From NCBI GenBank assembly GCA_044892525.1, contig CM097885.1, positions 19,718,001 through 19,782,000 on the forward strand: 64,000 nt of DNA. Reading direction: 5' to 3'. A program made the position numbers and the translations under genes. The notes below the pieces were generated by a model. The model was given only the letters and a program-made list of their open reading frames with translations, was not told the DNA's origin and did not search any database. Position 1 is the first letter of the stretch, and each line of letters opens with the position of its first letter. Shown in pieces: positions 22,141-60,135 of the stretch. This DNA is from Schmidtea polychroa. Its lineage: Eukaryota.

Positions 22141-22187
<47 letters not shown>

Positions 22188-22320: not shown

Positions 22321-22395
<75 letters not shown>

Positions 22396-28276: not shown

Positions 28277-28586
28277 TCAATTCTTACATTGAGATTCCTC
28301 AAAGGTTATCGTTCCAATCATTTTATTTCATTGTTCGATAGCTCATTTTAAAGCTTAGTGCAAGACCTTTCGAATGAGCTATTGAAGGTATCATCATCAT
28401 TAATATTGACAAAGTTATTATCGTTTTCCCGAGACCATTTTCAAGGTCATTTAATTATTATTATTATTAGTATTAATCTATATACTCCGAGTTTATCCGA
28501 CAAAATATTTTGTCCCCCTATGGGTAATGCTCGTAAGGGTACTGGTCAACTCGCAAGGGTATTATTAAACAAATCAATAAAACACA

Positions 28587-28634
<48 letters not shown>

Positions 28635-28785: not shown

Positions 28786-31700
28786 ATGTCTCAATTTAGT
28801 GAAAATGTTCTAAACGGAATTGTCACCGCGAATATAGTCGACAGCCTCAATTTCCTGATCAATCGAACTGAACAAATCATTGAAGGTGAACATATCGATT
28901 ATCAGCAAATGATGGAGATAGAATCCCTGGAAACCAAGAAGTATTACTTCAATAGAATATTTCAGTGTCTTTTCGATGAAGACATGAAATGGACAAGGAT
29001 AATTGTAGGATTCACCTACATGAAGATAATCATAGAAAAAAGTTTATGGGACTCCGAGCACTATTATCAGTGGTCTTTAGAAGTAAAATTAGTAGTGTGG
29101 TTATATACCCAACCAAAACAGCCCCCCAACAAAAACATGCCTCCAAATCACTTAAGCTATTAGAAAAACAACCTAAAACTTATACTTTTATAGTATTTTA
29201 ACCCTATATTTTGAAAACAACCACCCTTAATGACTCTAACTGTTTTAATCTTTAAAGCTTCAAACTCAAAAGCTTCAAACTAAAAAGAGAATAGAAAAGA
29301 AAATGGCATTATGAAAAAGTTAGAGGGCTATTTGATCTTTATCAGATTATTGATTTTAAATTATATAAATTAAAAAATAAATGAAAAATAGTAAAACTGC
29401 TCTGAGAGGACAGTGGTATTTTTTTTTTTTTTTTTTTTTTCACTGTCCCCTCAACAGTTTTTTTTGATCCGGATCATTTTTTTTTATTCAACCTCTTTCG
29501 TTTATCAAATCTCTTCCAATATACAAGCTGGCCAGGCTCATAATCAGAATCAATTCGATAATAGCAGCACACCTTATTATTCGCTTCTCGCTCGAATACG
29601 ATTTCATCGGCGTTTTAAGTGTGCTGCTCGAAAGTACAAATGAATTCGAAAGCGAATCCGAAAGAGGTCCGAAAACAACCGAGAAAGGGATCGATCCGGG
29701 GGTGTTCGAAAGACAGGTGGCGATAATTACCGGTTCGCCACCATCACCCGTTTCAATATTTTTTTTTCATATTTATGTTTAAAAAATAAAATAATAAATA
29801 AAATAAATAAAATAAATAAAATAAAATAAAATAAAAATAAATAAAATAAAATATAAATCTAAGATACCCACACTATTATTTTCAAATTTTTAATATTATT
29901 TTATGTTGAAAAAAAACTAACCTCAGATGTGATTTGAACCGCTAGCATTTTGAACCACTGTGTCAGTCTAGCCCACTGCGCTATCTAGGATTGGATTTTT
30001 GTCATTTTTTAAATTTTTATTATAAAAAATGAATAATATAAATCTTAAAAAATAAAATGAAAACAGGGTATCCAATAAAAAATTTTTTTCTAAAAATGAA
30101 TTGTAATATTTGCAATAAAGTTTTTAAAAATAAAACTGGATTAATTTCTCACTTAAAATCGAAAGCTCATTTATTAAAAGAAAATAATCTTAATGATACA
30201 AATTCAAAACTTTGTCTTAAATGTAAAGGAAGATTTCTACATTCTGGATATAATAAACATTTTGAAAATTGTATCGGGAAAAATAGAGAAATATTTACAT
30301 GTCCTCATTGTAACTTTTCAACAAAACTATATTTCTATTATTTAGAACATAGAAAAGAATGTAAAAATAAAAAACAAAATTCTGACGATGAGGAATGTCA
30401 TTCAGAAGGAGAGCCTGATCATGTTGAAAGAGAAAAATATAACTGGGATAATTTTAATCATATAGATGAATTTCAATTAAAAATTAATGGGCCTGCAACT
30501 CCTGGAGAATATATAAATAAAAATAAAAAAAATATTAAAAATTCTTTCACTGAAGCTTTAAAAAATTATAAACCGACAAGGTATAATGTTATAAATATAA
30601 AATTATAATCAAAGCAAAATACTGGCGAGGAGCAGAAGAAAAGACAACACCCTTAGATGTTGAAATTGGAATACCTTTTAAATATTTATTTTCAATTAAA
30701 GGATTTGATAAAACCATCAAAGAAATAATTAAAGCAGCAGAAGCAAAACAAGAGGAAGTAGAAAATGAATTAGGAGATTCAAACTTAGTATTCAACTCTT
30801 TCCAAACTTTAGTGATTGATTATTGGAGAGGATTACCACCCAATCCTAAATCTTATATTCCTACACCCTTTAAATCTAAAAATGTTATAAATGTACAGAA
30901 TAATGATAACAAATGTTTCATCTGGTCAATACTTGCACATTTACATCCTCAAGCAACAAATCCCCAAAGAGTTTCAAAATACAAACAATATGAAAATGAA
31001 TTAATATTTCCCAAAGGATTCAAACACCCAATGAAACTAGAAGACATTCCAGAATTTGAAAAATTAAATAATCTTAAACTTAATATTTATGAACATGTTA
31101 TAGGGAAAGAAATTATTCCAATTTATATTTCAGATAGTGGAACCAAGGATAACGGAGCACAGGACAACGAGATATATCTTTTAATCTTGGAACAAGAAAA
31201 TAATCAACATTATGTTTTAATAAAAAACTTTCAAGCTTTTACATCTCCAGAGAATCCAACTAGTGGAGGAGGAACATGTAAAAGATGTCTTCATTATTCA
31301 ACAACTAAAAACTCTATGATTAAACATACAAGATTTTGTGAAAAAGATGATCCAGCTTTAATTAAAATGCCTAATAATCCCAAGATGTATTTTAAAAACT
31401 TTTCAAATTTACTACAAACAGTTGGAGTTCTTTATGGTGACTTTGAATCTATAAACCATAAACAAGATTTGGTTTATCAATATTTAAAAATAATAGAAAA
31501 AAATAAACTCATGGATTTATGGAACTCCTCAGGAGAGAAGATGAAACCAGAGAGGATGAAAGCCTTTCTAAGAAAAAGAAATAAACCTAATAGTGTTAAA
31601 AAAACTAAACAATTACCATCTGCTTATAAATTATTATTTAAAAGTAATTATCCTGAACTCATAGAATCTAGAGAATATTCAATTCTAGGAGGTACCCCTG

Positions 31701-34700
31701 AAGAAGTCTTGAATCATTTTACTAAAAATATAAATGATCTAGAACATGAAATATTTAAAATATTAAAAACAAAGTATCCTCAAAATATTTCTAATCAACA
31801 ACAACAAGAATATGAAAATACTTCCAACTGTTGGATGTGTAAACAGAATATTCTTCCTGATGAAAAAGTTATAGATCATGATCATTTAAAAAAGGAAAAT
31901 AATTATCGAGGAGCAGCTCATAAAAATTGCAATCTTAATTGCCATACTCCTAAATTTATACCTGTTATATTTCATAATCTTTTTGGATATGACATACATC
32001 TATTTATTAAACACCTCGCAGCAAATGCTAAAAACTCTTTCAAAGTTATCGGCTTAACAAAGGAAAAATATAAATCAATTGAATATGGAAAATTAAAATT
32101 TATAGACTCGTTAAACTTTCTCCAAATGTCTTTAGATGCAGTAGCAAAAACAATGAAACCAGAAAATTTTAAAATCACTCGAGAATTCTTGGAAAAAAAT
32201 AATATTCCTCTAGAAGAATATCCTACATGTTTAGCAAAAGGAATATATCCTTATGACTATGTTGACTCGTTTGAAAGATATAATGAAACAAGTCTTCCTA
32301 ACAAAGAAGATTTCTTTTCAAACTTACTACAATCAGGGATTACAGATCAAGAATATTCTCGAGCATTAAAAATGTGGGAATTATTCAAGTGTAAAACTTT
32401 AGGAGAATATACAAGTATGTATTTATCCTTGGATGTTTATATTCTAGCAGATTGCTTTGAAGAATTTACAAACTCTTTTGTTCTTAAACCTTATAATTAT
32501 ATAACTGCACCCTCTTTAGCTTGGGATACTATGTTATATACCATTTGGACTTCAAATATAGAAGATGCTGATAAAATTATAGATCTTTTAACTAACCTCG
32601 ATATGTTTAACCAAATTAAAACAAACATTAGAGGAGGAGTCTCTTCAGTAATGGGGAATAGAGAAATAAAAGCTAGAAATGCAATAACTATTAGCCGAAG
32701 ACTATCTAAACACCCTGATGATCCATATATGAAAATTAACAATGAGGAATTAAAAGAATTATTAGAAACAATGAAAAATCCTATATTTATACTTTATATA
32801 GATGCAACAGCTTTATATTCAGGAATTATGACTCAATTTTTACCAATGGGTGATTTCACTGAAATAGAGAACCCAACAGATGACCTTATGAAAGAAATAC
32901 TTTCAACATCGAAAGATTCTCCAATAGGTTACTTTATAGAATGCGACCTCGACTATCCAGATGATATAAAATCAGGAACAAGATATTTTCCTTTAGCTCC
33001 CATAAGAAGAAAGATTGATATCAACGAACTTTCTGAATGGCAAATCTCACAAGATAAACCTCCAACAATGAAACTTCTTTGTGATCAAACAGATCGAAGG
33101 TTTTATCTTTGTCACTATAGACTCCTCCAATTTTATCTTTCACGAGGAATGATATTAAAAAAAGTTCATAGTGTCATAAGATTTAAACAAGCTCCATTCA
33201 TGAAAGCTTTTATCGAGGAGAACATTAGGTGCCGAAACATTGCAAAAAGAGAAGGTAATCTTTTTAAAGATAATAATTATAAAATTTTAAACAATTCAGT
33301 CTTTGGAAAAACAATGGAGAATGTTGATAAATATACTCATATTGAACTCCTAACAAATACTACCAAAGATATTAAGCGTTATAATCGCATGCTAGGAAAG
33401 CCTACATTTAAAAACGCACAAGTATTTTCTGAAAATCTTACTGCAGTAGAATTAAAAAATTATGAGAAAACATATAACAAACCAATATTTATAGGGTTTA
33501 CAATTTTAGAACTTTCAAAATTACAAATGTATGAAACATATTATAACATCTTACAACCTATATACGGAGCAAATATATCAATGCATGCAATGGATACAGA
33601 TTCAATGTTTTTAACAATAAGAACTCATGATTTACAAAAAGATATGAAAGAAAATCCTATACTTTCAAATTTAATAAATTCATCTGGAGAACTATTTTCG
33701 TTTAAAGATGAAAAACCTTTTACTCCTATAGAAAATGGAATATTTATTCGTGCTAAACAATATTCATACGAAACATTTAGAAACCCTGAATTTATAACTA
33801 GATCATTTATATTTAAAACTCCAGAAACAGAAGAAACCATTACACATAGATATCCTATATTTCCTAAAGGACCAGAGGGACAAGAAGAAAAACCTGTAAA
33901 GGATAACAGATGTAAAGGAATACAGAGAGTGGTTGCAAAGAATCTTTCTCATCAAGATTATATAGATACATTGAATCCAAATCATAAAGATAAAATTGAT
34001 GAAATACATCAACTTAAAAGCGAAAACCATGATATTCACTTGATAGAATCTCAAAAAATATCATTATCAAATTATGATGATAAGAGATTCATACTAAGTG
34101 ATTTAAAGACAACTCTACCTATTGGAAATAATTTAATCCCTATAATAAAAAATCTAGAAAAGTTGAATAAGTTATATGATACAAAGATTACTGATCTTGA
34201 TATTTATAATGTTGAAATTATTTATCCCGAGAGAGAAATCGAGAAACCTTTATATTCTCAAGTTTTTAATCCTATATGTTTAGAACTTAAATATTTTAAT
34301 ACTGATCCTGAATATATAAAAGGTCTAAGTGATAAAGAATTTAAAGATCATAAATTAATGATTCATAGGTTGGCTTTCAACCATAACTGAAACCAACGAT
34401 ATTTAATTTTTTAATAATAAAATGTCGACAATTAATTTAAGCAACTATAGCAACCTGATCTACTTTTTTAAAAATACACCCATTTTATAAGTAAGAATTC
34501 TTTAACCATTTTTCTCGAGATGTTTTTTTATTACTTATAACATTAGCCACCATGCCCTCCCTTTTTAATCTTATAACCTCATTCTTTATATCTTGTATTA
34601 TTTGATTTGATTTCATTATTTCTTCGTCTGTCAGGATTCCATCTTCCAAAGCTTTTAATTGAAATAAAAATAATTTAGAGATTCCTAATTCTATTGATAA

Positions 34701-37700
34701 ACAAACTTCTCTATAAAAACTTTTCTTTTTAGAAGTATAAGATAATGAAACTATTTCAGTTAAGAAACCATCAGCCACAGAAATACTTCCAAGTATTACA
34801 GGTGCAAGAGTAACAACTGGTAAAGTTATGGGTAAAATAACTGTTAATATTGCAGATGCAAATCCTAAAGAATAACCTATAACTTTTAAAACTGTATTCC
34901 CTTTATTCCATCTATTTTTAATTTTTTTATAATGCTTTAATAAATCTTGTAAATGTAAGGTTTCTGATTTAAATTCTTTTACTCTCATAATTTCAAGTTC
35001 TGTGGGAGCCGAGGCCTTGGAAGAATAATATCCTGATGATCTCAATTCTGGGTAAATATTTTCTTCTCTTACTTCTTCCATTTTAATAATTAAAAAAATA
35101 AGACTTTATTCTTCTGAGCACCATCTGGCACCAATACTCGGATATCAAAAGAAACTCTTGTTGAGAGGATATCTTTATACAATTCTCTCAATGCTTTACG
35201 AACTTCATCAACATCAACCTTTTTTTCATAAAATATTAAATCTATATATTGTACAAGTGAACTAGAGAAATGAATATTCTTACTTTTAACTTTATGTAGT
35301 CCATGTGAATGAGTATTAACATACCAATCTCCGTGTGGTAAATCATAACTAGTCATTATAACATCACCCTTTTCAAGCTTACTATTATAATCACATTTCA
35401 CAAACCATTTCATTCTTTCATTATCATCATCAAACAAAAAGAAATAAGGATCAATAATTTTTACAACCATAAAAACACCCCATTCTTTACTGTTTGTTGT
35501 TATTAAACTTGGTTCTATAAAATGTTTATATGTATGGGGTAATAATGTTTTATTCTGTTCTAATTCAGCAGCTCTTTTTCTAATACTATGTGTGGTGTTA
35601 ATGTGTGTTCCATGAGACTCTAAATTTGAAATTCTTTTATTAAATGATGTAATCATCTCATTTATTATTTTATATATTGTATTAAATTTAGTATTCATAA
35701 TTTGTTTATCTTTAGAATTTAATATAGCAGTATTTAACTTTACAACTTGTTCAGTTAACAGACTTTGTAACTTGTCAAATTTATCATTAAATCGTTGTTC
35801 GATATTATTAAGCTTTGATTCCATTGAATCAATTTTTGTTGTTAATGAACTTTCAATTCTTGTTGTTGTTAAATCAGTATATTTTTTAACACCATCTACA
35901 TATTTCTTATTAACTGCATCAGCTTCATCAGTTGGAAAAGATAATTCTTTTATCTTGTGTCCATTTAAAATTAAATCACCCTTCATTGAATCACCTCTTT
36001 CATTAATATATTTATTTTCTGTTAAAGTTAATATTTCTTCTGTATTAAACCCTGTTTTTATTGTTCCACCACCTCTATTACATGGAATATAAGAACTCAT
36101 TTATTAATAATTTAAAATGAATCTTCAAACTTGTTTCAAATGTAAATACATTGAAATCTCTTCTCCATTAAAATCAATCAATTCTCCTTCTTGATTAAGA
36201 ATTTTAAAATTAATATCCATAATATATTTTCTACATAAAGGTAAATAATTTGGAGGATTCATTCTTTCAACTATTTTATATCCCATAGGAACTGTGTTTG
36301 AGGGAAAGGAATATAAAACATTTGTTTGTTTACCATTATTATAAGAACCTGTTATACAATCGCAATGAATATTTATTGTGTTTGTATTTATTATTTTTAT
36401 AATATGTTCTGATGTTATTATTTTATCTTCTTTTATTGTTATATCCATAGGTTTAAATCCTAAAACTGTGTGAAAGAAACAATTATCTAAAAAACTAATT
36501 TTTATATTCTTCAAAGTCATTACACATTTTGAAGTTGGTATATCCATTTTAATTTTAATACCTTCATTTGTTTTTTTAGAAAGTATATCATTTAAATCTT
36601 TTATCTCATATGTCCCAGGTTCTATTGTTATAATTTCTGGTTTATGATCATCACGAGTTTGAATAGTAAATTTATTATTATCTTTAGTTATATTAAAAAT
36701 AGTATTATAAGCACAAAACCATAATAGCCCCAATTCATAATTTAAATTTTGATCTAATTTAATTGAATCTTGAAAGTTTATAGTAAACTCTGATTCTTTT
36801 GAATTTATAGATAAAGTTCTTGAATATTTATCTGACATTATGTTTACCATTTTTTTTAAATTATCTTCCGGAGGGTTGTGAAGCTCCATTTCTTTAGTAG
36901 TAAATTCATATAGTAAAAATCCTTATAGTAAAAATCCTTATAGTAGAGATTCTAGATCATTATAAATTTCTTGAATTATAGATTCAAAATCCTGCGTATG
37001 CCCCTTTCCCTCTCCCTTATTCAATCTATACAAAACATATAAACTTAAAATACCACATATTTTAGTATTCAAAGGTTGAACTTGTAAAGAGTTAAAAGTA
37101 TAACCATTTGGGGAATCAATCGGAGAACCCCTCAAGAGATAATCTTCAACTTCTTTAGTAGGTTTAATCCCAAAAGAATCAAAGTAGATAGATTTCTTAT
37201 ATATACAAACCCAATGAGATCCTTTTTCATTTGAATTTTGATAATTGATTATTATATTCAGGGGACTCTCCAGACTTGATAATTCATCATTCATTAATAT
37301 TTTAATTTTTAAATTTAAATAATTTGCATAATCTTTTAAATCAAAATTTGTTTTTGCATTTATTCCAAATGTTTTTAAAAAATCTAATATTGAAGGAGTC
37401 ATTTTGTATTTTAAAACTTCGTATTTATAACTTCGTATACTTATTAAATTTATCTTTTGAAATTATTCCTTGTTTTAACAAATCTTTAGAAATCTTTAAA
37501 ATATCAGAATCTAAATTATTATGTTCTGCTTTCCTTGCAGCTAATAGTTTTCTTAATTCAATAAAAAGATTGATGGGATTTGGTTTACCACCTTCACTAA
37601 TTAATCCCTCTCCCTCTGTAACAACATAACCCTTTTCATTTTTATTTAAATAATTCTTTAAATCTTGAATATATTTTGCTTTAGAACTAGCTCTTATTAA

Positions 37701-40700
37701 TCTTATTAAATTTAAATATTTTTTAATTTCTTCAACATCATCTGAAGAATATCCACAAAGTAATCTATAAAAATCATCTGTAAATTCAAAGTCTAAATAT
37801 TCATTATTATAAACATTTTGTGAATGAATACGTGATTTATTTTCTGAATTTTAATATAAAGTAAAGTTTTGTTTATTAATTGTTATTATTTGATATCCTT
37901 CAGTATTAGTATTAAATGTGGGTCTAATTGAAGGAGGTAAATCATCTCTAATTTTAGGATCAACTTTAAGAGGTTTTGTTTTTAAAACATTTCTTCTTCT
38001 TCCACATTAGAAATTCTTCTGCGTTTTCTTTGATTTCTTTCAGAATGGTTTTCACTGGATTCTTTTTCTTTATCCTGCCACTCTAGTTCTTTTATTTTTT
38101 GTTTTTTATCTTCTAACTCTTTAAATTTTGCTTGCTCATTGAAATCTTCCAACTCTTTTATAGCTTTAATTGTTGGCCCCTGTTGTTGTGTTATTACCTC
38201 ATTTAATATTATAGATTCAGCATGTTGAGTTGTATCTTTTTTATTATATTTATCTTGTTCTGATTGTAATTTTTTTAAAAGTGCTAATCTTTCTTCATAT
38301 ACCATTTTAATGGTATCAAAAATGGTATCATAGTTCGAAGGGCTTCAAGTATAATCCTTTACCATTTTTAGTTTTACAAAGGCATCCATTCTTTAAAGAT
38401 TTACATATTTTTTTTAAATCTTCTTTATCTTTTGAAGATAAAGATTCAGAAGTAGAAATTTGATTTTTTAAAAAATCATTTAAACCTCTACCTTTATAAG
38501 GATCAAGATAGAGACCTTTGCCCTGAGACTTTTGCCGACTCCCCTCATATGGATTAAGATAGAGACCCTTTCCAACGGACACTCCCCCTTTAGCTTGCCC
38601 TACCTTCTTCATTGAATCGATTTCAGTTTGTAGTTTTTCTTTTTCTAGATTCTTTAGCTTTTTGAACTGTAGTTGCAATTCCTCCAGCTATTCCAGCAGC
38701 ACCTGATAAACCAGCAATGATTGCAGGTATTAAAGCAGCTAATGGAAGAATGCCACCTTCTTTAGCTTCGTGGAGCTTCGCTCTAACTTGTTCTTTTACA
38801 TGTTTTCCAATAAAATATTTTTTACCATCATTTACTACTGATTTATTTTTATTTGAATTTATTAATTCTTGCAAAGATTCTTCAGTTGTCATTTTATAAT
38901 AAACAAAATGGATGTTTGGAAACCAATTTTAAATAGACATAAGAGTAAATTTAATAATAAAGTATTTCCTGATAATTTTAGATTATTAATTGTTGGTTCT
39001 TCTGGATGTGGAAAGAATGTACTTGTTTTGAGAATGTTACTTGAAGATGATTTTTTAGATTATAATAATTTAATCTTTTATTCTACAACCATAAATCAAC
39101 CAGAATTACAACTTTTGAAATGTGGATTTGAAAATAAATTAACTAAAAAAGCAATAATTGATATTTTTAAAAATCAACATAGGTGTCCTGAAGAAGTTTT
39201 TCAACCTTGTGATATGGTTGATTGGCATAAGGAAAAGATTTTAGAATCAGATATTAGTAATAAAAATGATTATATTTGTGAAGAAGGGCAGGAGGCAATT
39301 CAAGTTTTATTCTCTAATAAACCTGAAGATGTTTTACATTGTGATTTACTTCCTAAAGATAAAAAGAATCTAGTTATATTTGATGATGTTGTTAATATGA
39401 AAAATCAAGAGATTCAAAAGAGTTACTTTACACGAGGTCGACATAATAATTGTAATGTTATTTATATATCTCAAACATATTATGCTTTAGATAAAAATTC
39501 AATAAGAAATAATTCCAATTGTTTTATATTTTTTAAATTAGATCGCCGTGATAAGAATATGATTTATAATGATTTATTTTCAAATGTTGAACCTGATAAG
39601 AATATGTTTGATATGTTTGTTGATAATCATTGGAAAGAAAAATATAATTATATTTATTTGGATAGAGAAGAAGCTGAAATATGGAAAAGTTTGTTTTAGG
39701 GCTTGTCGACTTAAAAATCTGTTTTCTGTAGTTCATTATTATAAAATCTACCTAATATTTTTTCATTATTTAAATCAAAGATGCTATATGTTATTGGAGT
39801 TGTATAATGTATTTTATTTATAATAAAAATTTCATTTGTCCATCTTGCTGTGAATCCTTTTTCAAATTTATTTTTATATTTAAATATTCTTACTCGGTCA
39901 CCAATTTTAAACTTTGGTTTTTCAATAACATCATTTTCAATATTTACCACTTTAATGGTTTCAGGCTTCATGGAAGCATTTAAAGGTGTTAATTTTATAG
40001 AACTATGTACATCATTATTATATTCATTTACAATCTTTTGTAACAATTCATTATTCCATTTTTGTTTTCCAATAGCAGTAAAATATTTCCACATTTTATT
40101 TTTTAATGTTCTATTTAATCTTTCAACTACGACTGCTTTTCCTTCGTTTTCTGTTGAATATAATTTAATATCATTTTCATTTAAAAACTTTGTAAAAACT
40201 TTGTTATAAAATTCTGTTCCTTTATCACACCATAAATATTTTGGGATTCTTTGATTTTCTTCAAATATATTTTCAAATGCTTCTGTAATAGAATATCCTG
40301 TTTTATTTTCTAAACATCTTGCAGAAGCAAATCTTGTATATAAATCTATTACAGTTAAAATTATTTTATATTTTTCAGGGTCTGATGATTTGGGCATAAA
40401 GACTAAATCTGCAGACCATGTTTGATCTTTTTCATGTACTTGAACTTTTAAATATTTTTTATTTTTTCTAAATTCATGGTGTAATTCCTTTGCATATTTT
40501 ATTTCTGATTCTGTTGGGGTTTGTAAACTAGTCTTGGCTGTACTCTCGAGGGATCTTTCAATCTCTGCTTGTTCGATAATCTTTTTATAAGCAACATCTT
40601 TTGCTTTCCTAGGAAGTCTTGCACCCATGGTGATCGGACTGTGTCCTAAGCCTATGAAAATCTTACCTTTCATTGCTAATTTAACTAGAGCTCTTTGAAT

Positions 40701-43700
40701 CTTTTCTTGGGTTGATGGATTTTGGATACTATTTAAATCATGTATTAAATTCACATCTGCAACATGTCTATCTCTAAGATTTGTTGAATTGTATGCAATG
40801 TCATGTTTTAAAGCTGCTTGATCAATTCTATTTATTGGTTCTTCTCCTTGTTTGGGATTATTATTTTCATCTAATCTAATATCTAGACGTGTTCCTGGTC
40901 CAGTATAGTTGTGTTTAAATAAATGTCTTTCACCTGGATATTTTTCTGTAGTAAAAGGTTTTAATATTGAAGATGTTGTTTTTGAAGATTGCAAATCGCC
41001 TCCAGCTCGTGGAATTAGGTCACCTACTGTATGTTTTTTAGTTTTAAGATGACTTGGTTTATGATGTCTTGTAACTTGACAATTACAAGTTTCACATCTC
41101 CAATAGGGTTTATTTAAAGACATTTTAAAATGTCAAAATATCAGGGATTATATCAAGAATCTCCCCTAACATTTTCGATTATTGAAATCTTTCCACCATA
41201 TAATTTCATTTCTATTTTCTTTTCTTCTAATATTAATGTATATACTTTAGCTTTAAAATTAGAATCCTTTGTTACATGAAGTGTAACATCAACATTATTT
41301 ATGGCTAATCGATCATCTTGGTCTGATACATTTATACAAAATATAGAATATAAATTTTTGAAATCTTCTAAACTTAATTGCGGTTCAACATTGAAATCAT
41401 AACATGTTTCAATATAATTTAGATATGGGAATATGTTTTCATTATTTTCAATATTAAATTCCATTCTATTTATTGGATAATAAGAACTATTTAATTGAAT
41501 TTGGATTGTTTTTAAATTATCATCTCCAATCTTTTGAATAAATAGATTGTTATTTTTTTGGAAAGATGAATCTGTTTCTTTGAATCCAATCAAGATATAT
41601 CTTGGTCGGTATGCTAAATTTGCTACCTTTATAGAATATGTTGAACCCTCTGTCATACTAAATTCACTACAGATTCTATTTAAATAATTTACATTTATAG
41701 ACTTGTTGGAATTTAATCTTTCAAGGAGTTTGATTTCAGAATGTGGGTTTAATGTCCATTCAGGTATATGTAATTCAAGTGTTGATAATTTTAATTTAGC
41801 TTTTGTATCTACAGCTCCATAGAACAATCTTTTATCACCTTCTACTCTATTACAGATGAATTCTATAAAAACATTATGAAGTATACGATTATAGTTTTGA
41901 AGGAATCCAAACAAGTGTTTTAATTCAAAATAACCTTCAAATTTTTTAGATTTATAAAGTTCAGCTCTTTTATGGTAACCATGGTTTACATCTAAACCAT
42001 CTTTATCTAAATCCCCTTTATTAACATCAGGAATCCAACCTGTTAATTCACCATATTCGTTTTTATAATCACAACCAGTCAAAATAAAATTTAACATTGT
42101 AGAATATACTCCCGGATGCAAAACAGTTTCAATTTCTGATGATCCTAGTTTTAATCTCATGTTGGAGAATAAATTTGGAAAGAAATTATTTTCTAGGGTT
42201 ATATCTTTGTTTGCTTCAATTTCTAATTCGATTTTATAATATAATTTGGCATTACAAATATCTATAGGGTTTGATGTTTGAAGAGATTGAAAAACTATAT
42301 CACCCCTACGATTTAAGTTTGCAATAGATCCTGAAATTGGAGAGATTTTTAAAATATCATTTTTTTTAATTTCATGAGTAAATTCTTTATTATAATCAAG
42401 ATTTAATTTATTTTTTTCTTGAATTTTAAGATTTATGTTATTCATTTTTATATATTAAAATTTACACACACACAATAGGATTAATTAAATATATTATGTA
42501 AGCCATTATAGCGGAGTGGGAATAGGCTTCAATTTTATCACCGGGAGTACCGGGTTCAATTTTCGATTTTGGTCAATTTTTTTCGATATTTTTTTTCAAC
42601 GGAATCTGATTCAGCGTACTGATTTTAGTATATATTTAAATTTTCAGATCGATCTGAGTGGTAGTTGTCGAGAAAATGAATAATTAATTATTAATTTCAT
42701 CAATAAATAGTCACACATTAACAACTTATTTTATATTGAGTATAGCTTAGTGGTAATAGCACTCGACTGCATTGCCAATACCAATGGGTTCAAATCCCAT
42801 TTCGGTCATTTTTTTCAAATTTTTTTTTAACGAAATATTGATCAGCATACTCGATTTAGTACTTGTACAAATTTTTAAGGAGATTGGTCAACGGCAACCT
42901 GTCTTTCGAACACCCCCGGATCGATCCCGGTAATGTGCACATTTATTTCTCGGTTGTTTTCGGACCTCTTTCGGATTCGCTTTCGAATTCATTTGTACTT
43001 TCGAGCAGCACACTTAAAACGCCGATGAAATCGTATTCGAGCGAGAAGCGAATAATAAGGTGTGCTGCTATTATCGAATTGATTCTGATTATGAGCCTGG
43101 CCAGCTTGTATATTGGAAGAGATTTGATAAACGAAAGAGGTTGAATAAAAAAAAAATGATCCGGATCAAAAAAAACTGTTGAGGGGACAGTGAAAAAAAA
43201 AAAAAAAAAAATACCACTGTCCCCTCAGAGCAGTTTTACTATTTTTCATTTATTTTTTAATTTATATAATTTAAAATCAATAATCTGATAAAGATCAAAT
43301 AGCCCTCTAACTTTTTCATAATGCCATTTTCTTTTCTATTCTCTTTTTAGTTTGAAGCTTTTGAGTTTGAGGCTTTAAAGATTAAAACAGTTAGAGTCAT
43401 TAAGGGTGGTTGTTTTCAAAATATAGGGTTAAAATACTATAAAAGTATAAGTTTTAGGTTGTTTTTCTAATAGCTTAAGTGATTTGGAGGCATGTTTTTG
43501 TTGGGGGGCTGTTTTGGTTGGGTGGAGATAGAATCCCTGAACATATCGATTATCAGCAAATGATGGAGATAGAATCCCTGAACATATCGATTATCAGCAA
43601 ATGATGGAGATAGAATCCCTGGAAACCAAGAAGTATTACTTCAATAGAATATTTCAGTGTCTTTTCGATGAAGACATGAAATGGACAAGGATAATTGTAG

Positions 43701-44000
43701 GATTCACCTACATGAAGATAATCATAGAAAAAAGTTTATAGGACTCCGAGCACTATTATCAGTGGTCTTTAGAAGTAAGATTTCTTTTATAATCTACATT
43801 TTAATAATATTAATTTCTAGATAATCAAGTCCAAGTTTACCCCATGGATAGAAGCCAATGGCGGATGGGGTGTATTAAATAAACTGGCCTGCAATTTTAA
43901 AGAAACTGATGAAATCAAAAGAAAAATGAAAAACTATATAAAACTTACAACTGGAGTTGTTATAATGTATATTTTCTGTAGATATATGAATAAAAATTAA
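28786..44000 (+). CDS. Bcl-2-family protein of P2; exon 1 28786-29082, exon 2 43821-44000; P3 sits in the intron
   Basis: BH1-like LFDEDMKWTRIIVGFTY, BH2-like PWIEANGGW, C-terminal hydrophobic tail LTTGVVIMYIF. The phase-0 GT..AG join gives 158 aa. Confidence 0.8.
29909..29990 (-). ncRNA. tRNA-like Pol III-type unit 1 (P3)
   Basis: A box TAGCGCAGTGG, B box GGTTCAAATC, T8 terminator. No convincing anticodon stem. Confidence 0.55.
30057..34390 (+). CDS. polB: Protein-primed DNA polymerase B of P3 with N-terminal zinc fingers (one frameshift near 30600)
   Basis: C2H2 CNICNKVFKNKTGLISHLKSKAH. Motifs LYGDFES, IFHNLFGYD, KGIYPY, YIDATALY, KILNNSVFGK and MDTDS. The frame of 30812-34390 is open back to ~30595. 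Confidence 0.92.
34485..35081 (-). CDS. P3 membrane-associated protein with central hydrophobic hairpin
   Basis: 198-aa ORF with hydrophobic segment VIGYSLGFASAILTVILPITLPVVTLAPVILG. Function unknown. Confidence 0.7.
   Translation of the reverse strand: MEEVREENIYPELRSSGYYSSKASAPTELEIMRVKEFKSETLHLQDLLKHYKKIKNRWNKGNTVLKVIGYSLGFASAILTVILPITLPVVTLAPVILGSISVADGFLTEIVSLSYTSKKKSFYREVCLSIELGISKLFLFQLKALEDGILTDEEIMKSNQIIQDIKNEVIRLKREGMVANVISNKKTSREKWLKNSYL
35090..36100 (-). CDS. P3 fibre-like/coiled-coil virion protein
   Basis: GDSMKGDLILNGHKI..DEADAVNKKYVD fibre-type motif followed by a coiled coil. Confidence 0.6.
   Translation of the reverse strand: MSSYIPCNRGGGTIKTGFNTEEILTLTENKYINERGDSMKGDLILNGHKIKELSFPTDEADAVNKKYVDGVKKYTDLTTTRIESSLTTKIDSMESKLNNIEQRFNDKFDKLQSLLTEQVVKLNTAILNSKDKQIMNTKFNTIYKIINEMITSFNKRISNLESHGTHINTTHSIRKRAAELEQNKTLLPHTYKHFIEPSLITTNSKEWGVFMVVKIIDPYFFLFDDDNERMKWFVKCDYNSKLEKGDVIMTSYDLPHGDWYVNTHSHGLHKVKSKNIHFSSSLVQYIDLIFYEKKVDVDEVRKALRELYKDILSTRVSFDIRVLVPDGAQKNKVLFF
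36125..36889 (-). CDS. P3 minor capsid protein (penton-like)
   Basis: YNTIFNI, IEPGTYEI, INIHCDCITGSY..VLYSF and IDFNGEEISMYLHLK. Confidence 0.8.
   Translation of the reverse strand: MELHNPPEDNLKKMVNIMSDKYSRTLSINSKESEFTINFQDSIKLDQNLNYELGLLWFCAYNTIFNITKDNNKFTIQTRDDHKPEIITIEPGTYEIKDLNDILSKKTNEGIKIKMDIPTSKCVMTLKNIKISFLDNCFFHTVLGFKPMDITIKEDKIITSEHIIKIINTNTINIHCDCITGSYNNGKQTNVLYSFPSNTVPMGYKIVERMNPPNYLPLCRKYIMDINFKILNQEGELIDFNGEEISMYLHLKQV
36938..37402 (-). CDS. P3 adenain-type cysteine protease
   Basis: GSHWVC, YFDSFG, Q..CG catalytic pattern. Confidence 0.9.
   Translation of the reverse strand: MTPSILDFLKTFGINAKTNFDLKDYANYLNLKIKILMNDELSSLESPLNIIINYQNSNEKGSHWVCIYKKSIYFDSFGIKPTKEVEDYLLRGSPIDSPNGYTFNSLQVQPLNTKICGILSLYVLYRLNKGEGKGHTQDFESIIQEIYNDLESLL
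37410..38305 (-). pseudogene. P3 ORF of unknown function, disrupted
   Basis: ORF 37982-38305 continues through a frameshift and stop to ..LRKLLAARKAEHNN..LLKQGIISK. Confidence 0.55.
38328..38892 (-). pseudogene. P3 core/membrane-lytic precursor-like protein (frameshift near 38650)
   Basis: KEGGILPLAALIPAIIAGL and repeated GKGLYL, consistent with adenain-cleaved virion proteins. Confidence 0.6.
38908..39699 (+). CDS. P3 A32/FtsK-like DNA packaging ATPase
   Basis: Walker A IVGSSGCGKN, Walker B LVIFDD, FTRGRHNNCNVIYISQ. Confidence 0.92.
   Translation: MDVWKPILNRHKSKFNNKVFPDNFRLLIVGSSGCGKNVLVLRMLLEDDFLDYNNLIFYSTTINQPELQLLKCGFENKLTKKAIIDIFKNQHRCPEEVFQPCDMVDWHKEKILESDISNKNDYICEEGQEAIQVLFSNKPEDVLHCDLLPKDKKNLVIFDDVVNMKNQEIQKSYFTRGRHNNCNVIYISQTYYALDKNSIRNNSNCFIFFKLDRRDKNMIYNDLFSNVEPDKNMFDMFVDNHWKEKYNYIYLDREEAEIWKSLF
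39711..41123 (-). CDS. int: P3 zinc finger-phospholipase A2-retroviral-type integrase fusion
   Basis: NYTGPGT..NRIDQAALKHDIAY (parvoviral-type PLA2) followed by WSADL, WCDKGTEFY and VERLNRTLK (DDE core). Confidence 0.9.
   Translation of the reverse strand: MSLNKPYWRCETCNCQVTRHHKPSHLKTKKHTVGDLIPRAGGDLQSSKTTSSILKPFTTEKYPGERHLFKHNYTGPGTRLDIRLDENNNPKQGEEPINRIDQAALKHDIAYNSTNLRDRHVADVNLIHDLNSIQNPSTQEKIQRALVKLAMKGKIFIGLGHSPITMGARLPRKAKDVAYKKIIEQAEIERSLESTAKTSLQTPTESEIKYAKELHHEFRKNKKYLKVQVHEKDQTWSADLVFMPKSSDPEKYKIILTVIDLYTRFASARCLENKTGYSITEAFENIFEENQRIPKYLWCDKGTEFYNKVFTKFLNENDIKLYSTENEGKAVVVERLNRTLKNKMWKYFTAIGKQKWNNELLQKIVNEYNNDVHSSIKLTPLNASMKPETIKVVNIENDVIEKPKFKIGDRVRIFKYKNKFEKGFTARWTNEIFIINKIHYTTPITYSIFDLNNEKILGRFYNNELQKTDF
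41153..42445 (-). CDS. P3 major capsid protein (double jelly-roll)
   Basis: 430 aa. NNFFPNLFS, LKHLFGFL, RPRYILIGF, QLNSSYYP and LYSIFCINVS pattern, plus genomic context. Confidence 0.8.
   Translation of the reverse strand: MNNINLKIQEKNKLNLDYNKEFTHEIKKNDILKISPISGSIANLNRRGDIVFQSLQTSNPIDICNAKLYYKIELEIEANKDITLENNFFPNLFSNMRLKLGSSEIETVLHPGVYSTMLNFILTGCDYKNEYGELTGWIPDVNKGDLDKDGLDVNHGYHKRAELYKSKKFEGYFELKHLFGFLQNYNRILHNVFIEFICNRVEGDKRLFYGAVDTKAKLKLSTLELHIPEWTLNPHSEIKLLERLNSNKSINVNYLNRICSEFSMTEGSTYSIKVANLAYRPRYILIGFKETDSSFQKNNNLFIQKIGDDNLKTIQIQLNSSYYPINRMEFNIENNENIFPYLNYIETCYDFNVEPQLSLEDFKNLYSIFCINVSDQDDRLAINNVDVTLHVTKDSNFKAKVYTLILEEKKIEMKLYGGKISIIENVRGDS
42502..42583 (+). ncRNA. tRNA-like Pol III-type unit 2 (P3)
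   Basis: A box TAGCGGAGTGG, B box GGTTCAATT, T7 terminator. Confidence 0.5.
42735..42815 (+). ncRNA. tRNA-like Pol III-type unit 3 (P3)
   Basis: A box TAGCTTAGTGG, perfect T-arm ATGGG-TTCAAAT-CCCAT, T7 terminator. CTGCATT occupies the anticodon-loop position but its stem is unpaired. Confidence 0.62.
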
Positions 44001-44044: not shown

Positions 44045-44391
44045 TTAAAATTTATTAACACATTCGCAATCATCATCTCCACATTTCATTATATTTTCAA
44101 CGACATGATCAATACAATCATTCGTAATATTATCTTTAGGTTCCTCTATAGGTTCATCTATAGGTTCATAGATTTCGTCATCAATTTCTTGAGTTTCTTC
44201 CTGATCGTCAAATCCTGAATCTTGACTCTCAACTACCCAGCCGATATTTAATGCATTTGTAACAGATAATATATCCTCAATTTTTACCCCAGATATTTCA
44301 GCTAATTTTGCCAACAAAAAGTTGATTACAAATTCTAAATAATAAATAATTTGGAAATTAATTAATCATGTTAACCTTTTTCTGTAGTCAT
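44045..44391 (-). CDS. P2 small acidic protein, two exons (intron 44335-44375)
   Basis: MTTEK|EFVINFLLAKLAEISG..; a 41-bp GT..AG intron supplies an ATG for the ORF (101 aa). Confidence 0.65.
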
Positions 44392-44525
44392 TATTAACAC
44401 TTTAAAACTATATTATAAGTTTGTTTATAGATTTTCTTTGTTAAATTTGCATGTCATTTGCATTAATGTTGCAATTAATAAAGAGAAAAAAACAAATATG
44501 ACTAATACATTTATTAAATATCACA

Positions 44526-44945
44526 TTAAAATAGTTGTGAAAGTCTAGCAGACATAATTTTCCAAATTGGAGAATACACATCATTATTATCAACTTTATA
44601 TCCTTGGATTGCAATTGTTATATACCAATTTTCGTTTTCTTTGAAGCTGATTTCATCAAAGGAATCATAAAATCTTGCATATCGGTTGTTGAAAAATGCA
44701 TGTTGATTACAAGATAGATTCGTATTCAACCGTTTGAAAACCTCATCAATAGATTTAACATCTATCGTTGAAAGCGTGCCGGATAAAAATTGAAATTGGG
44801 TAAGAATTAGCTTGATCGGTGACACCAATTTCATATTGATTTCTTCTTTTAAAAAATACATTTTATAGTTGTGGAACATTTGAACAGGTTGTACAAGTTC
44901 TGGAACAACTTTCCGCTTTTCAGTGCTTGAAATTTTCTTTGTCAT
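44526..44945 (-). CDS. P2 hypothetical protein (139 aa)
   Basis: ATG-started, complex-composition ORF in a co-oriented cluster. Confidence 0.65.
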   Translation of the reverse strand: MTKKISSTEKRKVVPELVQPVQMFHNYKMYFLKEEINMKLVSPIKLILTQFQFLSGTLSTIDVKSIDEVFKRLNTNLSCNQHAFFNNRYARFYDSFDEISFKENENWYITIAIQGYKVDNNDVYSPIWKIMSARLSQLF

Positions 44946-45224
44946 CGTGAATTATGATTAAAATGAAATGTTACAGGGATTTTATACCTATGACTAATGT
45001 TTATCAACCAATCAGATTGCTGCATGTCTTTGTTTAAATTGCATGTCTTTGTTTAAATTGTATGTCATTTGCATTAATGTTGCATTAATGTTTTTATTAT
45101 AAATATTGTTTTTATTATTATTATTTCTAATATTACTATTATTACTTATATTATTACTATTTCTATTATTATTTCTATTTCTATTATTTCGATTTACAAA
45201 AACAAAACAATTCAACATAAAAAT

Positions 45225-45631
45225 TTATTTTGATACAATCTGACTCGAGTGGTTATTTCTCAGAGTCTTCACCAAACACCATTCAACATATTGTTGATAA
45301 CGGAAATTGCAGCAGCTACATCCGAAAATGCAAGGAGCCTCTGGTTTCATTTCTTTCATCACCCTTCCTATCTTGACATCCCATAGAAAGGTGTTTATTA
45401 TATCGAATATCCAGATTCGTGTTTGGTTGTATACTAAATCCGGAATGATAGCTGGATCTCTATCTTGTAGAATTTCATTTAATTCCGGATAATAGAAGCA
45501 TAATCTTTGCAGGATAATTGATTGATATTCATCTGTAAAAGTATATATTAATGTAATAATAAAAATTTGAAATTACCATAATTTGCATGCTCTTTCATTG
45601 AGGTGATTGCGGAACTTTGTATGTTGTACAT
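45225..45631 (-). CDS. P2 hypothetical protein, two exons (intron 45533-45576), Cys cluster
   Basis: MYNIQSSAITSMKEHANY|DEYQSIILQRLCF..PCIFGCSCCNFRYQ..VSK*. 44-bp GT..AG intron, 120 aa, absent from the ORF track. Confidence 0.65.
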
Positions 45632-45706
45632 TTTTGTTGAATAAATGATTTCTAAACAGAAAACATATTGTTTAAAACAATCATTAACCAATTAGAAATT
45701 AACCAA

Positions 45707-46144
45707 TTAGAAATTGACCAATGAAATTATCTCATTTCGAACATTGTCAACAAATTCCCTATACTCCAAATTTCTCAACCCCAGCATGACAACCTTTCCA
45801 CTAGCAAACACGTTGACACATATAGGGTTATATTTTAATAGTCTTAGTGCCGGAAACAATTCCGGTTCAAACATACAATCACATTTTTTCGACATGTTAT
45901 ATAGATTGATACTATGTCCCATATCCATAGTAACGGTAATTGATTGGATTTTAATATTATTTATTCGATATTGTAATTTATTAATATCCAAGGGTTTCTT
46001 ACATCCCATGATTCTACATTTACCAGTCTTGAAAAATATTATCGGGTATTTCCCGCTTCTATCGATAATTTGCTGGGGTTTTCCTGGTGGGAACCTCATA
46101 TTTGTTACATCAAAATTTCCTCGATAATTTATATTTGCTAACAT
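45707..46144 (-). CDS. TBP: P2 TATA-binding-protein-like protein (145 aa)
   Basis: Two TBP repeats: ANI..IIFFKTGKCRIMG and IQSITVT..INL..FEPELFPAL..VNVFASGKVVMLG. Confidence 0.85.
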   Translation of the reverse strand: MLANINYRGNFDVTNMRFPPGKPQQIIDRSGKYPIIFFKTGKCRIMGCKKPLDINKLQYRINNIKIQSITVTMDMGHSINLYNMSKKCDCMFEPELFPALRLLKYNPICVNVFASGKVVMLGLRNLEYREFVDNVRNEIISLVNF

Positions 46145-46247
46145 TATTAAATCATTTATGAAAATTAGTCTTTATATACAAATTAAGTACGAGTTCATTA
46201 AATCATCGAATATAAACAAATACACATATATTTTTAAAATTTTTAAA

Positions 46248-46874: not shown

Positions 46875-46892
46875 AAACCTCTATGAATAATA

Positions 46893-47420: not shown

Positions 47421-47423
47421 ACA

Positions 47424-47869: not shown

Positions 47870-47928
<59 letters not shown>

Positions 47929-60100: not shown

Positions 60101-60129
<29 letters not shown>

Positions 60130-60135
<6 letters not shown>

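What the first reader, a model, noticed from the sequence alone, without database searches (positions are those of the whole stretch)
28786..44000. Polinton-encoded spliced Bcl-2 homologue, hidden by an intron and a 14-kb insertion
Seen: exon 1 ends ..HYYQWSLE|GT. Exon 2 after TTCTAG reads IIKSKFTPWIEANGGWGVL..LTTGVVIMYIFCRYMNKN*. The original 46-bp intron survives at 43775-43820. Known: BH1 (NWGR-type), BH2 (WIxxxGGW) and a tail anchor define Bcl-2 proteins, and adeno-, herpes- and poxviruses use them to block apoptosis. Inference: P2 is a virus-like element with an apoptosis modulator as its first gene inside the TIR. The BH1 G-to-T change (KWTR) may alter partner binding.
Basis: partly seen in the sequence, partly recalled or inferred. 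Interest (0 to 1): 0.82.

Follow-up and report, generated by a model that had tools for sequence, protein, structure and literature searches.

The report
Spliced Bcl-2-like gene in nested Polintons
A virus-like Polinton/Maverick element in what is probably a planarian genome carries, just inside its end, a small two-exon gene of the Bcl-2 cell-death-regulator family that would likely keep infected cells alive; here the gene is split by a second Polinton sitting in its intron, and cargo of this kind has already been noted for such elements.

Summary
Exon 1 (28786-29082), the 46-nt GT..AG intron (43775-43820) and exon 2 (43821-44000) give a 158-aa product. A 14.4-kb Polinton (29091-43523) lies 8 nt into the intron, beside a 204-nt duplication of target sequence.

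The gene is the first gene inside the left terminal repeat of an outer Polinton (28300-60362). Of 19 uninterrupted copies examined, 18 are intact. Paralogues 69-72% identical pass Pfam's Bcl-2 cut-off (34.4 and 34.7 against 31.4 bits). The window's spliced product scores 24.9-48.9 bits against my own profiles of the host's Bcl-2 genes; the best of 2000 shuffles reached 9.7. dN/dS between Polinton lineages is 0.07-0.18. Contigs of two probable RNA runs from one study carry exactly the predicted splice.

The fold models were inconclusive. The anti-apoptotic role is inferred, not tested.

Bcl2 homologues in adintovirus-type Polintons are in print (PMC8502044), and so is a BCL2-like motif in planarian Burro retroelements (PMC6431247). 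This scan had already noted the same gene family elsewhere in this genome. Verdict: real, a new member of a known kind, of moderate interest.

The parts
28300..28634 (+). Left terminal inverted repeat of the outer Polinton (P2); terminus CAAAGGTTATCG at 28300
   Evidence: Similarity of other copies starts at 28300. It matches 60362-60127 inverted at 80% and 21867-22185 direct at 81%. The two termini were compared letter by letter.
28786..29082 (+). Exon 1 of the Bcl-2-like gene (99 codons; BH1-like KWTR)
   Evidence: Translation. Pfam Bcl-2 E 0.0023, 18.9 bits, profile positions 7-66 of 100. Conserved in 19 copies.
29083..29090 (+). First 8 nt of the intron (GTAAAATT), left behind by the insertion
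29091..43523 (.). Nested Polinton P1: C2H2 zinc-finger ORF, protein-primed polymerase 30587-34390, A32-type ATPase 38866-39699, PLA2-like domain plus rve integrase 39711-41132 (-), double-jelly-roll capsid protein 41153-42454 (-); right arm lacks its outermost 16 nt
   Evidence: Terminal repeat arms. Pfam hits. Terminus and abundance: 1994 first-look candidates, 40 scored at 98-99% identity.
43524..43578 (+). Junction filler: partial and whole 41-nt repeats of exon-1 sequence
   Evidence: family D5.
43579..43774 (+). Duplicated 3' part of exon 1, with an in-frame stop at 43739-43741
   Evidence: (family D4).
43775..43820 (+). The 46-nt intron, GTAAGA..TTCTAG
   Evidence: The same intron (46 or 52 nt) is in 19 copies. 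It is skipped in contigs of runs X1 and X2 laid on copy L009.
43821..44000 (+). Exon 2 (59 codons plus stop): BH2 WIEANGGW and a hydrophobic C-terminal tail
   Evidence: It scores 12.6 and 23.1 bits against the two host Bcl-2 profiles.
44045..46171 (-). P2 accessory genes on the minus strand: ORFs 44045-44365, 44526-44951, 45225-45572, and a TBP-like ORF 45707-46171
   Evidence: Pfam TBP E 1.5e-15. Conserved in other copies.
46302..51563 (+). P2 core genes: A32-like ATPase pieces 46302-47420, rve + chromo integrase 47401-48570, ORFs 48501-49589, 49881-50642, 50615-51133, adenain-type protease 51075-51563
53877..58021 (+). P2 protein-primed DNA polymerase B with an endonuclease-VII-like insert, in two overlapping frames
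   Evidence: 28% identity to the P1 polymerase, E 5e-63 and 3e-34. The homologous copy at 22636-25709 hits Pfam DNA_pol_B_2.
60127..60362 (-). Right terminal inverted repeat of P2

Best explanation
This is a two-exon, 158-aa gene of the Bcl-2 family carried as the first gene inside the left terminal repeat of an adintovirus-like Polinton/Maverick in a probable planarian genome. Its tail-anchored product would likely bind the host's pro-death Bcl-2 relatives at the mitochondrial membrane and so keep the cell alive while the element is expressed or replicates.

Shown here: the gene structure, its place in the element, family membership by profile, purifying selection between Polinton lineages, and a splice joint in probable RNA contigs.

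Inferred: membrane targeting (from the hydrophobic tail), the pro-survival direction and the binding partners (by analogy with viral Bcl-2 homologues and from likeness to a planarian Bcl2-like protein).

The copy in this window is most likely dead. A second, very abundant Polinton sits 8 nt into its intron, with a 204-nt duplication whose exon piece holds a stop.
For: Structure.

Copies: at least 40 places at 96-100% identity, from 1512 first-look candidates. 18 of 19 uninterrupted copies are intact, and the intron is kept.

Element: termini at 28300 and 60362, with polymerase, integrase and protease. A complete copy on C4 has the same gene order between its own terminal repeats.

Family:
- Pfam Bcl-2 at 34.4 and 34.7 bits (cut-off 31.4; E about 3e-8) for two paralogues 72% and 69% identical, read through their in-frame intron with X at the stop.
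- Window exon 1 alone scores 18.9 bits.
- The window's spliced product, joined inside a script, scores 24.9 bits against a profile of host Bcl-2 genes without the closest relative and 48.9 bits with it. The best of 2000 shuffles scored 8.9 and 9.7. Both exons contribute.
- BLASTP to Schmidtea 'Bcl2-like protein' P0005: 24% over 140 aa, 71.2 bits, running into the tail.
- phmmer against PDB: all 60 listed rows, of 109 at E up to 10, are Bcl-2 family; best E 0.008.

Selection: dN/dS 0.07-0.18 between lineages at dS 0.55-1.76.

RNA: the joint 1696>1743 on L009, skipping exactly the 46-nt GT..AG intron, is seen in 1 contig each of X1 and X2. It is absent from X3 and X4 (28 and 1762 contigs laid). 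X2 has almost no cover on the intron. X2 also shows poly(A) loose ends elsewhere on P2.

Precedent: adintovirus Bcl2 and IAP homologues (PMC8502044, passage read; map labels in its supplement). Planarian Polintons are transcribed and silenced by SMEDWI-2 (PMC8532177, passages).
Against: - No function was tested. The Bcl-2 fold is shared by killers (Bax, Bak, Bok) and protectors, and sequence cannot decide between them.
- The window's own exon 1 alone is below Pfam's cut-off (18.9 against 31.4 bits). Exon 2 alone gives no Pfam hit. The spliced product could not be sent to Pfam or to the folding tool.
- A single-sequence phmmer of exon 1 over 1.84 billion representatives found only one unspliced read-through ORF, P0003.
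- Fold models are weak. The read-through paralogue gave pLDDT 51 and pTM 0.32. Exon 1 alone gave pLDDT 70 and pTM 0.53. Foldseek E values were at best 0.038 and 0.48.
- In the search independent of Foldseek, unrelated helical bundles (Z up to 6.9) outrank the 14 Bcl-2-family rows of the 50 shown (Z 5.1-5.7).
- That X1 and X2 are RNA is the tool's guess. Both come from one study.
- BH1 lacks the canonical Gly.
- The tree does not resolve the donor (61/26 support).
Confidence: 0.6

Rival explanations
1. The protein belongs to the Bcl-2 family but acts as a killer or pore-former (Bax/Bak/Bok-like), or in a non-apoptotic role such as autophagy or calcium control, for example to release particles or to punish loss of the element.
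For: The fold and the BH1/BH2 motifs are common to both classes. phmmer alignments to BAX cover more of the protein (residues 35-134) than those to Bcl-xL (101-143). Bak and Bax are among the Foldseek rows.
Against: No Bax/Bak-type BH3 (L...GDE) is visible in the helix-2 region by inspection of the translation. That motif is recalled, not tested. The closest cellular relative is a 'Bcl2-like protein', not the Bok-1 and Bok-2 proteins of the same host, which match the profile but not this protein best. Every viral Bcl-2 homologue I recall is pro-survival.
Confidence: 0.17
2. The gene is a captured host fragment that merely rides along and does nothing for the element.
For: This copy, the neighbouring copy to the right of the window, and 1 of 19 other copies carry stops. 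Polintons pick up passenger DNA.
Against: dN/dS is 0.07-0.18 across lineages whose synonymous sites are near saturation. The position next to the terminal repeat is the same in four lineages. The splice sites are kept in 19 of 19 copies. A spliced form is present in 2 runs.
Confidence: 0.05
3. It is a cellular planarian Bcl-2 gene that happens to lie between transposon insertions, not a Polinton gene.
For: The host has many Bcl-2 genes.
Against: There are at least 40 near-identical copies on four chromosomes, always with the same flanks out to the terminal repeat. It lacks the canonical intron after GGW that cellular genes of this genome have (L028, L032, L033, L034, L035).
Confidence: 0.02

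Closest known systems
Bcl2 homologues of adintoviruses / animal Polintons-Mavericks (Starrett et al. 2021, PMC8502044)
   Same: A Polinton-class element with protein-primed polymerase, integrase and adenain that carries a Bcl2 homologue as an accessory gene near a genome end. [quoted passage not shown] Map labels 'Adintoc5:Bcl2' and 'Bcl2' appear in Supplementary Fig S2.
   Different: No flatworm, Schmidtea or Platyhelminthes word occurs in the text or in the held part of the supplement, which was cut when stored. Here the gene is spliced and present in several diverged lineages. I made no sequence comparison with the adintovirus genes, because none was to hand.
BCL2-like motif in the ORF1 polyprotein of Burro giant Gypsy-like retroelements of Schmidtea mediterranea (Grohme et al. 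2018, as cited in PMC6431247)
   Same: A mobile element of the same kind of host carrying a Bcl-2-like sequence (passages read). The same genome shows many hits at profile positions 16-100, about 29 bits, inside open frames of 1000-3090 aa.
   Different: In Burro it is a domain inside a giant retroelement polyprotein with no tail anchor of its own. It is very divergent (GVNRDK in place of NWGR). Here it is a free-standing tail-anchored protein in a DNA element.
Schmidtea mediterranea 'Bcl2-like protein' C9WPR4 (P0005) and its counterpart in this genome (L032, C1:268544203)
   Same: Best cellular match: 24% identity over 140 aa, 71.2 bits, of similar length from the BH region to a C-terminal hydrophobic tail. 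BH1 has a small hydroxyl residue instead of Gly (RWSR against KWTR).
   Different: The cellular gene has the canonical intron right after GGW (GGCTGG|GTGAGT). The Polinton gene has none there and has one 14 codons upstream instead. The tree leaves the relation unresolved.
Viral Bcl-2 homologues (adenovirus E1B-19K, herpesvirus M11/BHRF1, ASFV A179L, poxvirus DPV022/ORFV125)
   Same: A small tail-anchored Bcl-2-type protein encoded by a DNA virus. A179L, M11, DPV022 and ORFV125 are among the structural rows for the exon-1 model at Z 5.2-5.6.
   Different: Those Z values do not stand above unrelated helical bundles. The functional likeness is recalled knowledge plus inference.

Membership tests
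Bcl-2 family (Pfam PF00452) | Profile match at or above the curated cut-off (31.4 bits) | tested here: met
   Paralogues L036 and L039 (72% and 69% identical) score 34.4 and 34.7 bits over profile positions 6-100 of 100, even with 16 intron-coded residues inside. Window exon 1 alone scores 18.9 bits and exon 2 alone gives no hit. The window's spliced product could not be sent to Pfam. Against my own host-gene profiles it scores 24.9 and 48.9 bits, against at most 9.7 for 2000 shuffles.
Bcl-2 family (Pfam PF00452) | BH1 motif (NWGR-type) | tested here: inconclusive
   The sequence reads KWTR: Trp and Arg are kept and Gly is replaced by Thr. The closest cellular relative reads RWSR. The motif definition is recalled.
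Bcl-2 family (Pfam PF00452) | BH2 motif (W..GGW) | tested here: met
   WIEANGGW in exon 2 aligns with WVRENGGW, WVSSNGGW and WIFQHGGW of host genes.
Bcl-2 family (Pfam PF00452) | C-terminal hydrophobic tail anchor | tested here: met
   LTTGVVIMYIFCRYM lies between basic residues at the very C-terminus and aligns with the tail of P0005. This is by inspection only; no membrane predictor was run.
Bcl-2 family (Pfam PF00452) | Bcl-2 fold (helical bundle around a central hairpin) | tested here: inconclusive
   Both models are all-helical. The read-through paralogue gave pLDDT 51 and window exon 1 gave pLDDT 70.4, pTM 0.53. Foldseek rows are nearly all Bcl-2 family, but E is at best 0.038 and 0.48 and TM at most 0.52. 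With VIA-align, 14 of the 50 rows shown are Bcl-2 family at Z 5.1-5.7, below unrelated bundles at Z 6.9.
Bcl-2 family (Pfam PF00452) | Binds BH3 helices / controls mitochondrial permeabilisation | not testable with these tools
   No assay was possible, and no complex prediction was run.
Polinton / Maverick (adintovirus-like) | [quoted passage not shown] | tested here: met
   P2 53877-58021 is 28% identical to the P1 polymerase, E 5e-63 and 3e-34. P1 and the P2-like copy at 22636-25709 hit PF03175.
Polinton / Maverick (adintovirus-like) | Retrovirus-like (rve) integrase | tested here: met
   P2 47401-48570: rve 25.3 bits (below the 32.6 cut-off) plus a chromo domain. It is 33% identical to the P1 integrase, E 1e-31, which passes at 43.9 bits.
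Polinton / Maverick (adintovirus-like) | Terminal inverted repeats | tested here: met
   28300-28634 against 60362-60127, 80%. The first 61 nt of the two ends differ at 1 place.
Polinton / Maverick (adintovirus-like) | Adenain-type protease | tested here: met
   51075-51563: Peptidase_C5, 23.9 bits against a cut-off of 21.3.
Polinton / Maverick (adintovirus-like) | Double-jelly-roll major capsid protein and packaging ATPase | tested here: inconclusive
   For P2, the ATPase scores only 16 bits (cut-off 22.8) and no capsid family was hit for ORFs 48501-51133. For P1 both are met: DJR-like 94.4 bits and Pox_A32 35.2 bits.
Polinton / Maverick (adintovirus-like) | Short (5-6 bp) target-site duplication | tested here: not met
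   The P2 flanks are ATTCCT and GGCAAA. P1 is flanked by a 204-nt duplication and has a truncated right end. Both junctions look rearranged. This bears on how these two copies arrived, not on what the elements are.

The most novel reading that the evidence does not exclude
Planarian mobile elements of unrelated kinds have each taken up a Bcl-2-family gene: at least two Polinton lineages (the spliced P2 type and an intronless 152-aa type that is 40% identical to the host Bcl2-like protein) and the Burro retroelements. After capture, the P2-type gene lost the canonical intron behind GGW and gained a new spliceosomal intron 14 codons upstream. That would point to apoptosis of differentiating or stem cells as a main host barrier against integrating virus-like elements in these animals. 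It would also give a dated case of intron gain inside a virus-like element.
Probability: 0.3. Interest if true: 0.6.

Novelty: new member of a known kind. Interest (0 to 1): 0.4.

Why it matters
Bcl-2 homologues are classic tools of large animal DNA viruses. Finding a conserved, spliced and selected one in abundant, young Polintons of a regeneration model supports the view that these elements behave as viruses that must manage host cell death. In that model, cell death and stem-cell turnover are central, and Polintons are known to be held down by PIWI. The gene also offers a tractable handle, by RNAi or expression, on element-host conflict in planarians. The principle is already in print for adintoviruses and for Burro, and the same gene family was already noted elsewhere in this genome by this scan. 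The gain is therefore detail and breadth, not a new kind of thing.

Tried and rejected
- Sequence searches with exon 1. The search for homologous proteins gave only two unspliced read-through ORFs, P0003 and P0004. phmmer over 1.84 billion representatives gave only P0003.
- Profile search with alignment A1 added only Schmidtea Bok-1 and Bok-2, so no deep alignment could be built for folding.
- Viral-contig scan with exon 1: no relative.
- Pfam on exon 2 alone: nothing.
It was repeated with X at the stop.
- In one search my slice of L009 (1400-1702) began two codons after the ATG and ran two codons into the intron. Its 20.4 bits is for that slice.
- Folding: both jobs gave low or middling confidence, and the structure searches were not decisive.
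- RNA: no listed holder is on record as RNA. The RNA label of X1 and X2 is a guess.
- Laying the runs on window:43530-51700 gave a joint table that was cut (190 rows not shown). It does not list the 43774>43821 joint among the rows shown.
- Tree of 17 Bcl-2 domains: the P2-type clade is solid (98/99), but its link to any cellular gene is unresolved (61/26, long branches). I left out L033 and L035 (partial domains) and all but two P2-type copies.
- No tRNA in the window.
- No further Bcl-2-like sequence in P1 or in 21867-27122 by tblastn at E up to 1.
- Literature searches for Polinton/Maverick together with Bcl-2, planarian, anti-apoptotic or transposon terms found no paper describing a planarian Polinton Bcl-2 gene. 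Subscription journals are not covered.
Full report
**1. What is in the sequence**

The window is AT-rich animal DNA with 22-38% G+C. It holds a single-ORF STRA6-like gene at 16080-18146. It lies on the largest of four chromosome-sized contigs (about 272, 190, 145 and 93 Mb) of a 781-Mb assembly.

- An ATG at 28786 opens 99 codons ending ..HYYQWSLE, followed by GT at 29083.
- At 43775-43820 lies a 46-nt GTAAGA..TTCTAG intron.
- 43821-44000 reads IIKSKFTPWIEANGGW...RYMNKN*.

**2. The interruption**

Between the two exons lies a complete second Polinton, P1.
- Its arms are 29107-29686 and 42946-43523, 99-100% complementary.
- It encodes a protein-primed polymerase (30587-34390), an A32-type ATPase, an rve integrase whose ORF also has a PLA2-like domain, and a double-jelly-roll capsid protein.
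- Five other copies fix its left terminus at 29091 (AGTAGTG...). The family is very abundant and young: 1994 first-look candidates, with 40 scored at 98-99% identity.

P1 therefore sits 8 nt into the intron. The junctions are not canonical.
- 204 nt of target (28887-29090) are repeated at 43579-43782.
- The right arm lacks its outermost 16 nt.
- 16 + 41 + 41 nt of exon-1 sequence fill the joint.
- The repeated exon piece has an in-frame stop at 43739-43741.
- The splice donor beside the full exon 1 reads GTAAAA.

This copy of the gene is most likely dead.

**3. The carrier**

Other copies begin to resemble the window at 28300. 28300-28634 recurs inverted at 60362-60127, and the two termini (CAAAGGTTATCG and CAAAAGTTATCG) are nearly the same for 61 nt.

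Between them, leaving P1 aside, lie:
- the Bcl-2-like gene;
- three small minus-strand ORFs;
- a TBP-like gene (Pfam TBP, E 1.5e-15);
- ATPase pieces;
- an rve + chromo integrase;
- three ORFs without a family;
- an adenain-type protease;
- a polymerase B with an endonuclease-VII-like insert.

A complete copy on C4 has the same order between its own repeats, about 14.5 kb in all.

The flanks show no target-site duplication. The sequences at 21867-27122 and at 60703 to about 4.8 kb beyond the window's end look like the two halves of one reversed P2-like element into which P2 is inserted. That nesting is an inference.

**4. Is it a real gene?**

- The region has at least 40 places at 96-100% identity, from 1512 first-look candidates.
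- In 19 uninterrupted copies the exons, the GT..AG ends and the intron (46 or 52 nt) are kept. The only other indel is an in-frame 6-nt one near the start. 18 of the 19 give an open 158- or 160-aa product.
- More distant Polinton lineages carry the same gene at the same place with the intron at the same codon: L036, L039, and the copy to the right of the window.
- Between lineages dN/dS is 0.07-0.18 at dS 0.55-1.76, and 0.25 within the P2 type. That is strong purifying selection on the protein.

**5. Is it a Bcl-2 homologue?**

- Window exon 1 alone hits Pfam Bcl-2 at E 0.0023, 18.9 bits, below the 31.4-bit cut-off. Exon 2 alone gives nothing.
- The joined product could not be sent to the outside tools.
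- In two paralogue lineages the intron is 45-48 nt and in frame. Read through with X at its stop, they score 34.4 and 34.7 bits over profile positions 6-100 of 100. A six-frame scan of the genome lists about 30 such copies among its 150 scored rows.
- Inside a script, the window's spliced product scored 24.9 bits against a profile of seven host Bcl-2-family sequences. It scored 48.9 bits when the closest relative was added. The best of 2000 shuffles scored 8.9 and 9.7. Each exon scored about half of the whole, so the match runs across the splice.
- The best cellular match is L032 (C1:268544203). L032 is 89% identical to the UniRef entry 'Bcl2-like protein, Schmidtea mediterranea' (P0005). Spliced product against P0005: 24% identity over 140 aa, 71.2 bits, running into the tail.
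- phmmer of a paralogue against PDB lists only Bcl-2-family chains among the 60 rows shown; best E 0.008.

Fold evidence is inconclusive.
- The read-through paralogue folded poorly: pLDDT 51.
- Window exon 1 alone folded moderately: pLDDT 70.4, pTM 0.53.
- Foldseek rows are nearly all Bcl-2 family, but at E 0.038 or worse and TM 0.52 or less.
- In the Foldseek-independent search, 14 of the 50 rows shown are Bcl-2 family at Z 5.1-5.7, below unrelated helical bundles at Z 6.9.

**6. Is it spliced?**

Contigs of four public runs were laid on the uninterrupted copy L009 (ATG 1394, exon 1 to 1696, exon 2 from 1743).
- One contig each of X1 (depth 46) and X2 (depth 18.2; 39 and 75 letters on the two sides) joins 1696 to 1743, skipping 46 nt with GT..AG ends.
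- X3 and X4, with 28 and 1762 contigs laid, do not show it.
- X2 has almost no cover on the intron.

X1 and X2 are only guessed to be RNA, and both come from one study. X2 shows poly(A) loose ends at three places on P2.

**7. How it most likely works**

Shown: a conserved, selected, spliced, tail-bearing Bcl-2-family gene at the edge of a Polinton.

Inferred: the product anchors in the outer mitochondrial or ER membrane by its tail, holds the host's pro-death relatives in check, and so delays apoptosis during expression or replication of the element. This is what the Bcl-2 homologues of adeno-, herpes-, asfar- and poxviruses do (recalled).

In support:
- The nearest cellular relative is a Bcl2-like protein rather than Bok-1 or Bok-2.
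- RNAi of planarian bcl2-1 is reported to cause lysis (PMC4993586, passages). I did not establish which named gene P0005 is.

The cellular relative has Ser and another Polinton lineage has Ser/Lys at these places.

**8. What is known**

- Starrett et al. 2021 state that adintovirus homologues of Bcl2 and IAP were observed (passage; map labels). No flatworm is mentioned in what I could read.
- Burro retroelements of S. mediterranea carry BCL2-like and BIR motifs (PMC6431247, passages). The matching hits are plentiful in this genome.
- Planarian Polintons are known, transcribed and PIWI-silenced (PMC8532177). Mavericks are expanded in Dugesia (bioRxiv 10.64898/2025.12.11.693146).
- Four literature searches found no paper on a planarian Polinton Bcl-2 gene.
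- Earlier notes of this scan describe the same gene family elsewhere in this genome, and a palindromic Bcl-2-bearing Maverick in another genome. My own calls agree with them.

**9. Beyond the finding**

- A second, intronless 152-aa Bcl-2-like gene, 40% identical to P0005, sits in another Polinton lineage beside polymerase, protease, integrase and TBP genes.
- Cellular genes here keep the canonical intron right after GGW. The P2-type gene lacks it and has its intron 14 codons upstream.
- The tree does not resolve whether the two Polinton genes are one capture or two.

**10. Verdict**

The feature is real and correctly read. It is a new member of a known kind and of moderate interest.

Noticed in passing
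window 45707-46171 (-): P2 encodes a small TBP-like protein (Pfam TBP E 1.5e-15, one repeat matched). It is kept at 54-60% identity in two other Polinton lineages.
   Followed up: partly
window 39711-41132 (-): The integrase ORF of the nested Polinton P1 carries a phospholipase-A2-like domain (PF08398, E 4.6e-9, 36.9 bits) ahead of the rve core. That is the kind of domain parvoviruses use on their capsid protein.
   Followed up: no
window 21867-27122 and 60703-64000, continuing in L052:1-4780: These look like the two halves of one reversed P2-like element into which P2 is inserted, which makes a three-deep nest. Its own Bcl-2-like gene (L052, about 3606-4123) has an in-frame stop in exon 2.
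   Followed up: partly
window 47139-50349 vs 60703-64000: A 3.2-kb inverted repeat at 99-100% identity, although the neighbouring parts of the two elements are only 77-87% alike. The cause could be recent gene conversion, recombination or an assembly effect.
   Followed up: no
window 29035-29065 (exon 1 codons ~84-93): The window's copy reads EKSLWDSEHYY where all 19 other P2-type copies read AKGQHDSEHYY, 12 substitutions within about 30 nt. The neighbouring reversed element shares the window's version exactly, and the L039 lineage nearly (EKSLCDSEHYY). This looks like patch-wise conversion.
   Followed up: partly
L043+L044 (C1:224243000-224261000); L045+L046 (C1:203689000-203705000): Palindromic Polinton derivatives: two inverted arms joined head to head, with the Bcl-2-like gene at both ends. 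Further inverted gene pairs 7-9 kb apart were seen at C1:11095256/11101948 and C56:196861/205895.
   Followed up: partly
L053:930-1361 (C1:247541729-247542160) and at least 8 like it: An intronless 152-aa Bcl-2-like ORF (Pfam 33.5 bits), 40% identical to the Schmidtea Bcl2-like protein, lying in a different Polinton lineage.
   Followed up: partly
G000 C4:89.95-90.83 Mb (L021-L027): Seven near-identical Bcl-2 genes with a canonical NWGR (68 bits) lie within 0.9 Mb. They are either a tandem or segmental cluster of cellular genes, or cargo of yet another repeat.
   Followed up: no
many places, e.g. L055 (C1:6418985), L056 (C4:6617148): A Bcl-2-like domain (about 29 bits, profile positions 16-100) inside open frames of 1000-3090 aa. 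It fits the published Burro retroelement polyprotein.
   Followed up: partly
window 46918, 47548, 48469: Contigs of run X2 end in poly(A) runs at these places inside P2. These are possible transcript ends within or after the ATPase and integrase genes.
   Followed up: no
window 16080-18146 (+): A single open frame of 688 aa matching the retinol-binding-protein receptor (STRA6) family, E 7e-60. It is the only clearly cellular gene seen in the window.
   Followed up: no
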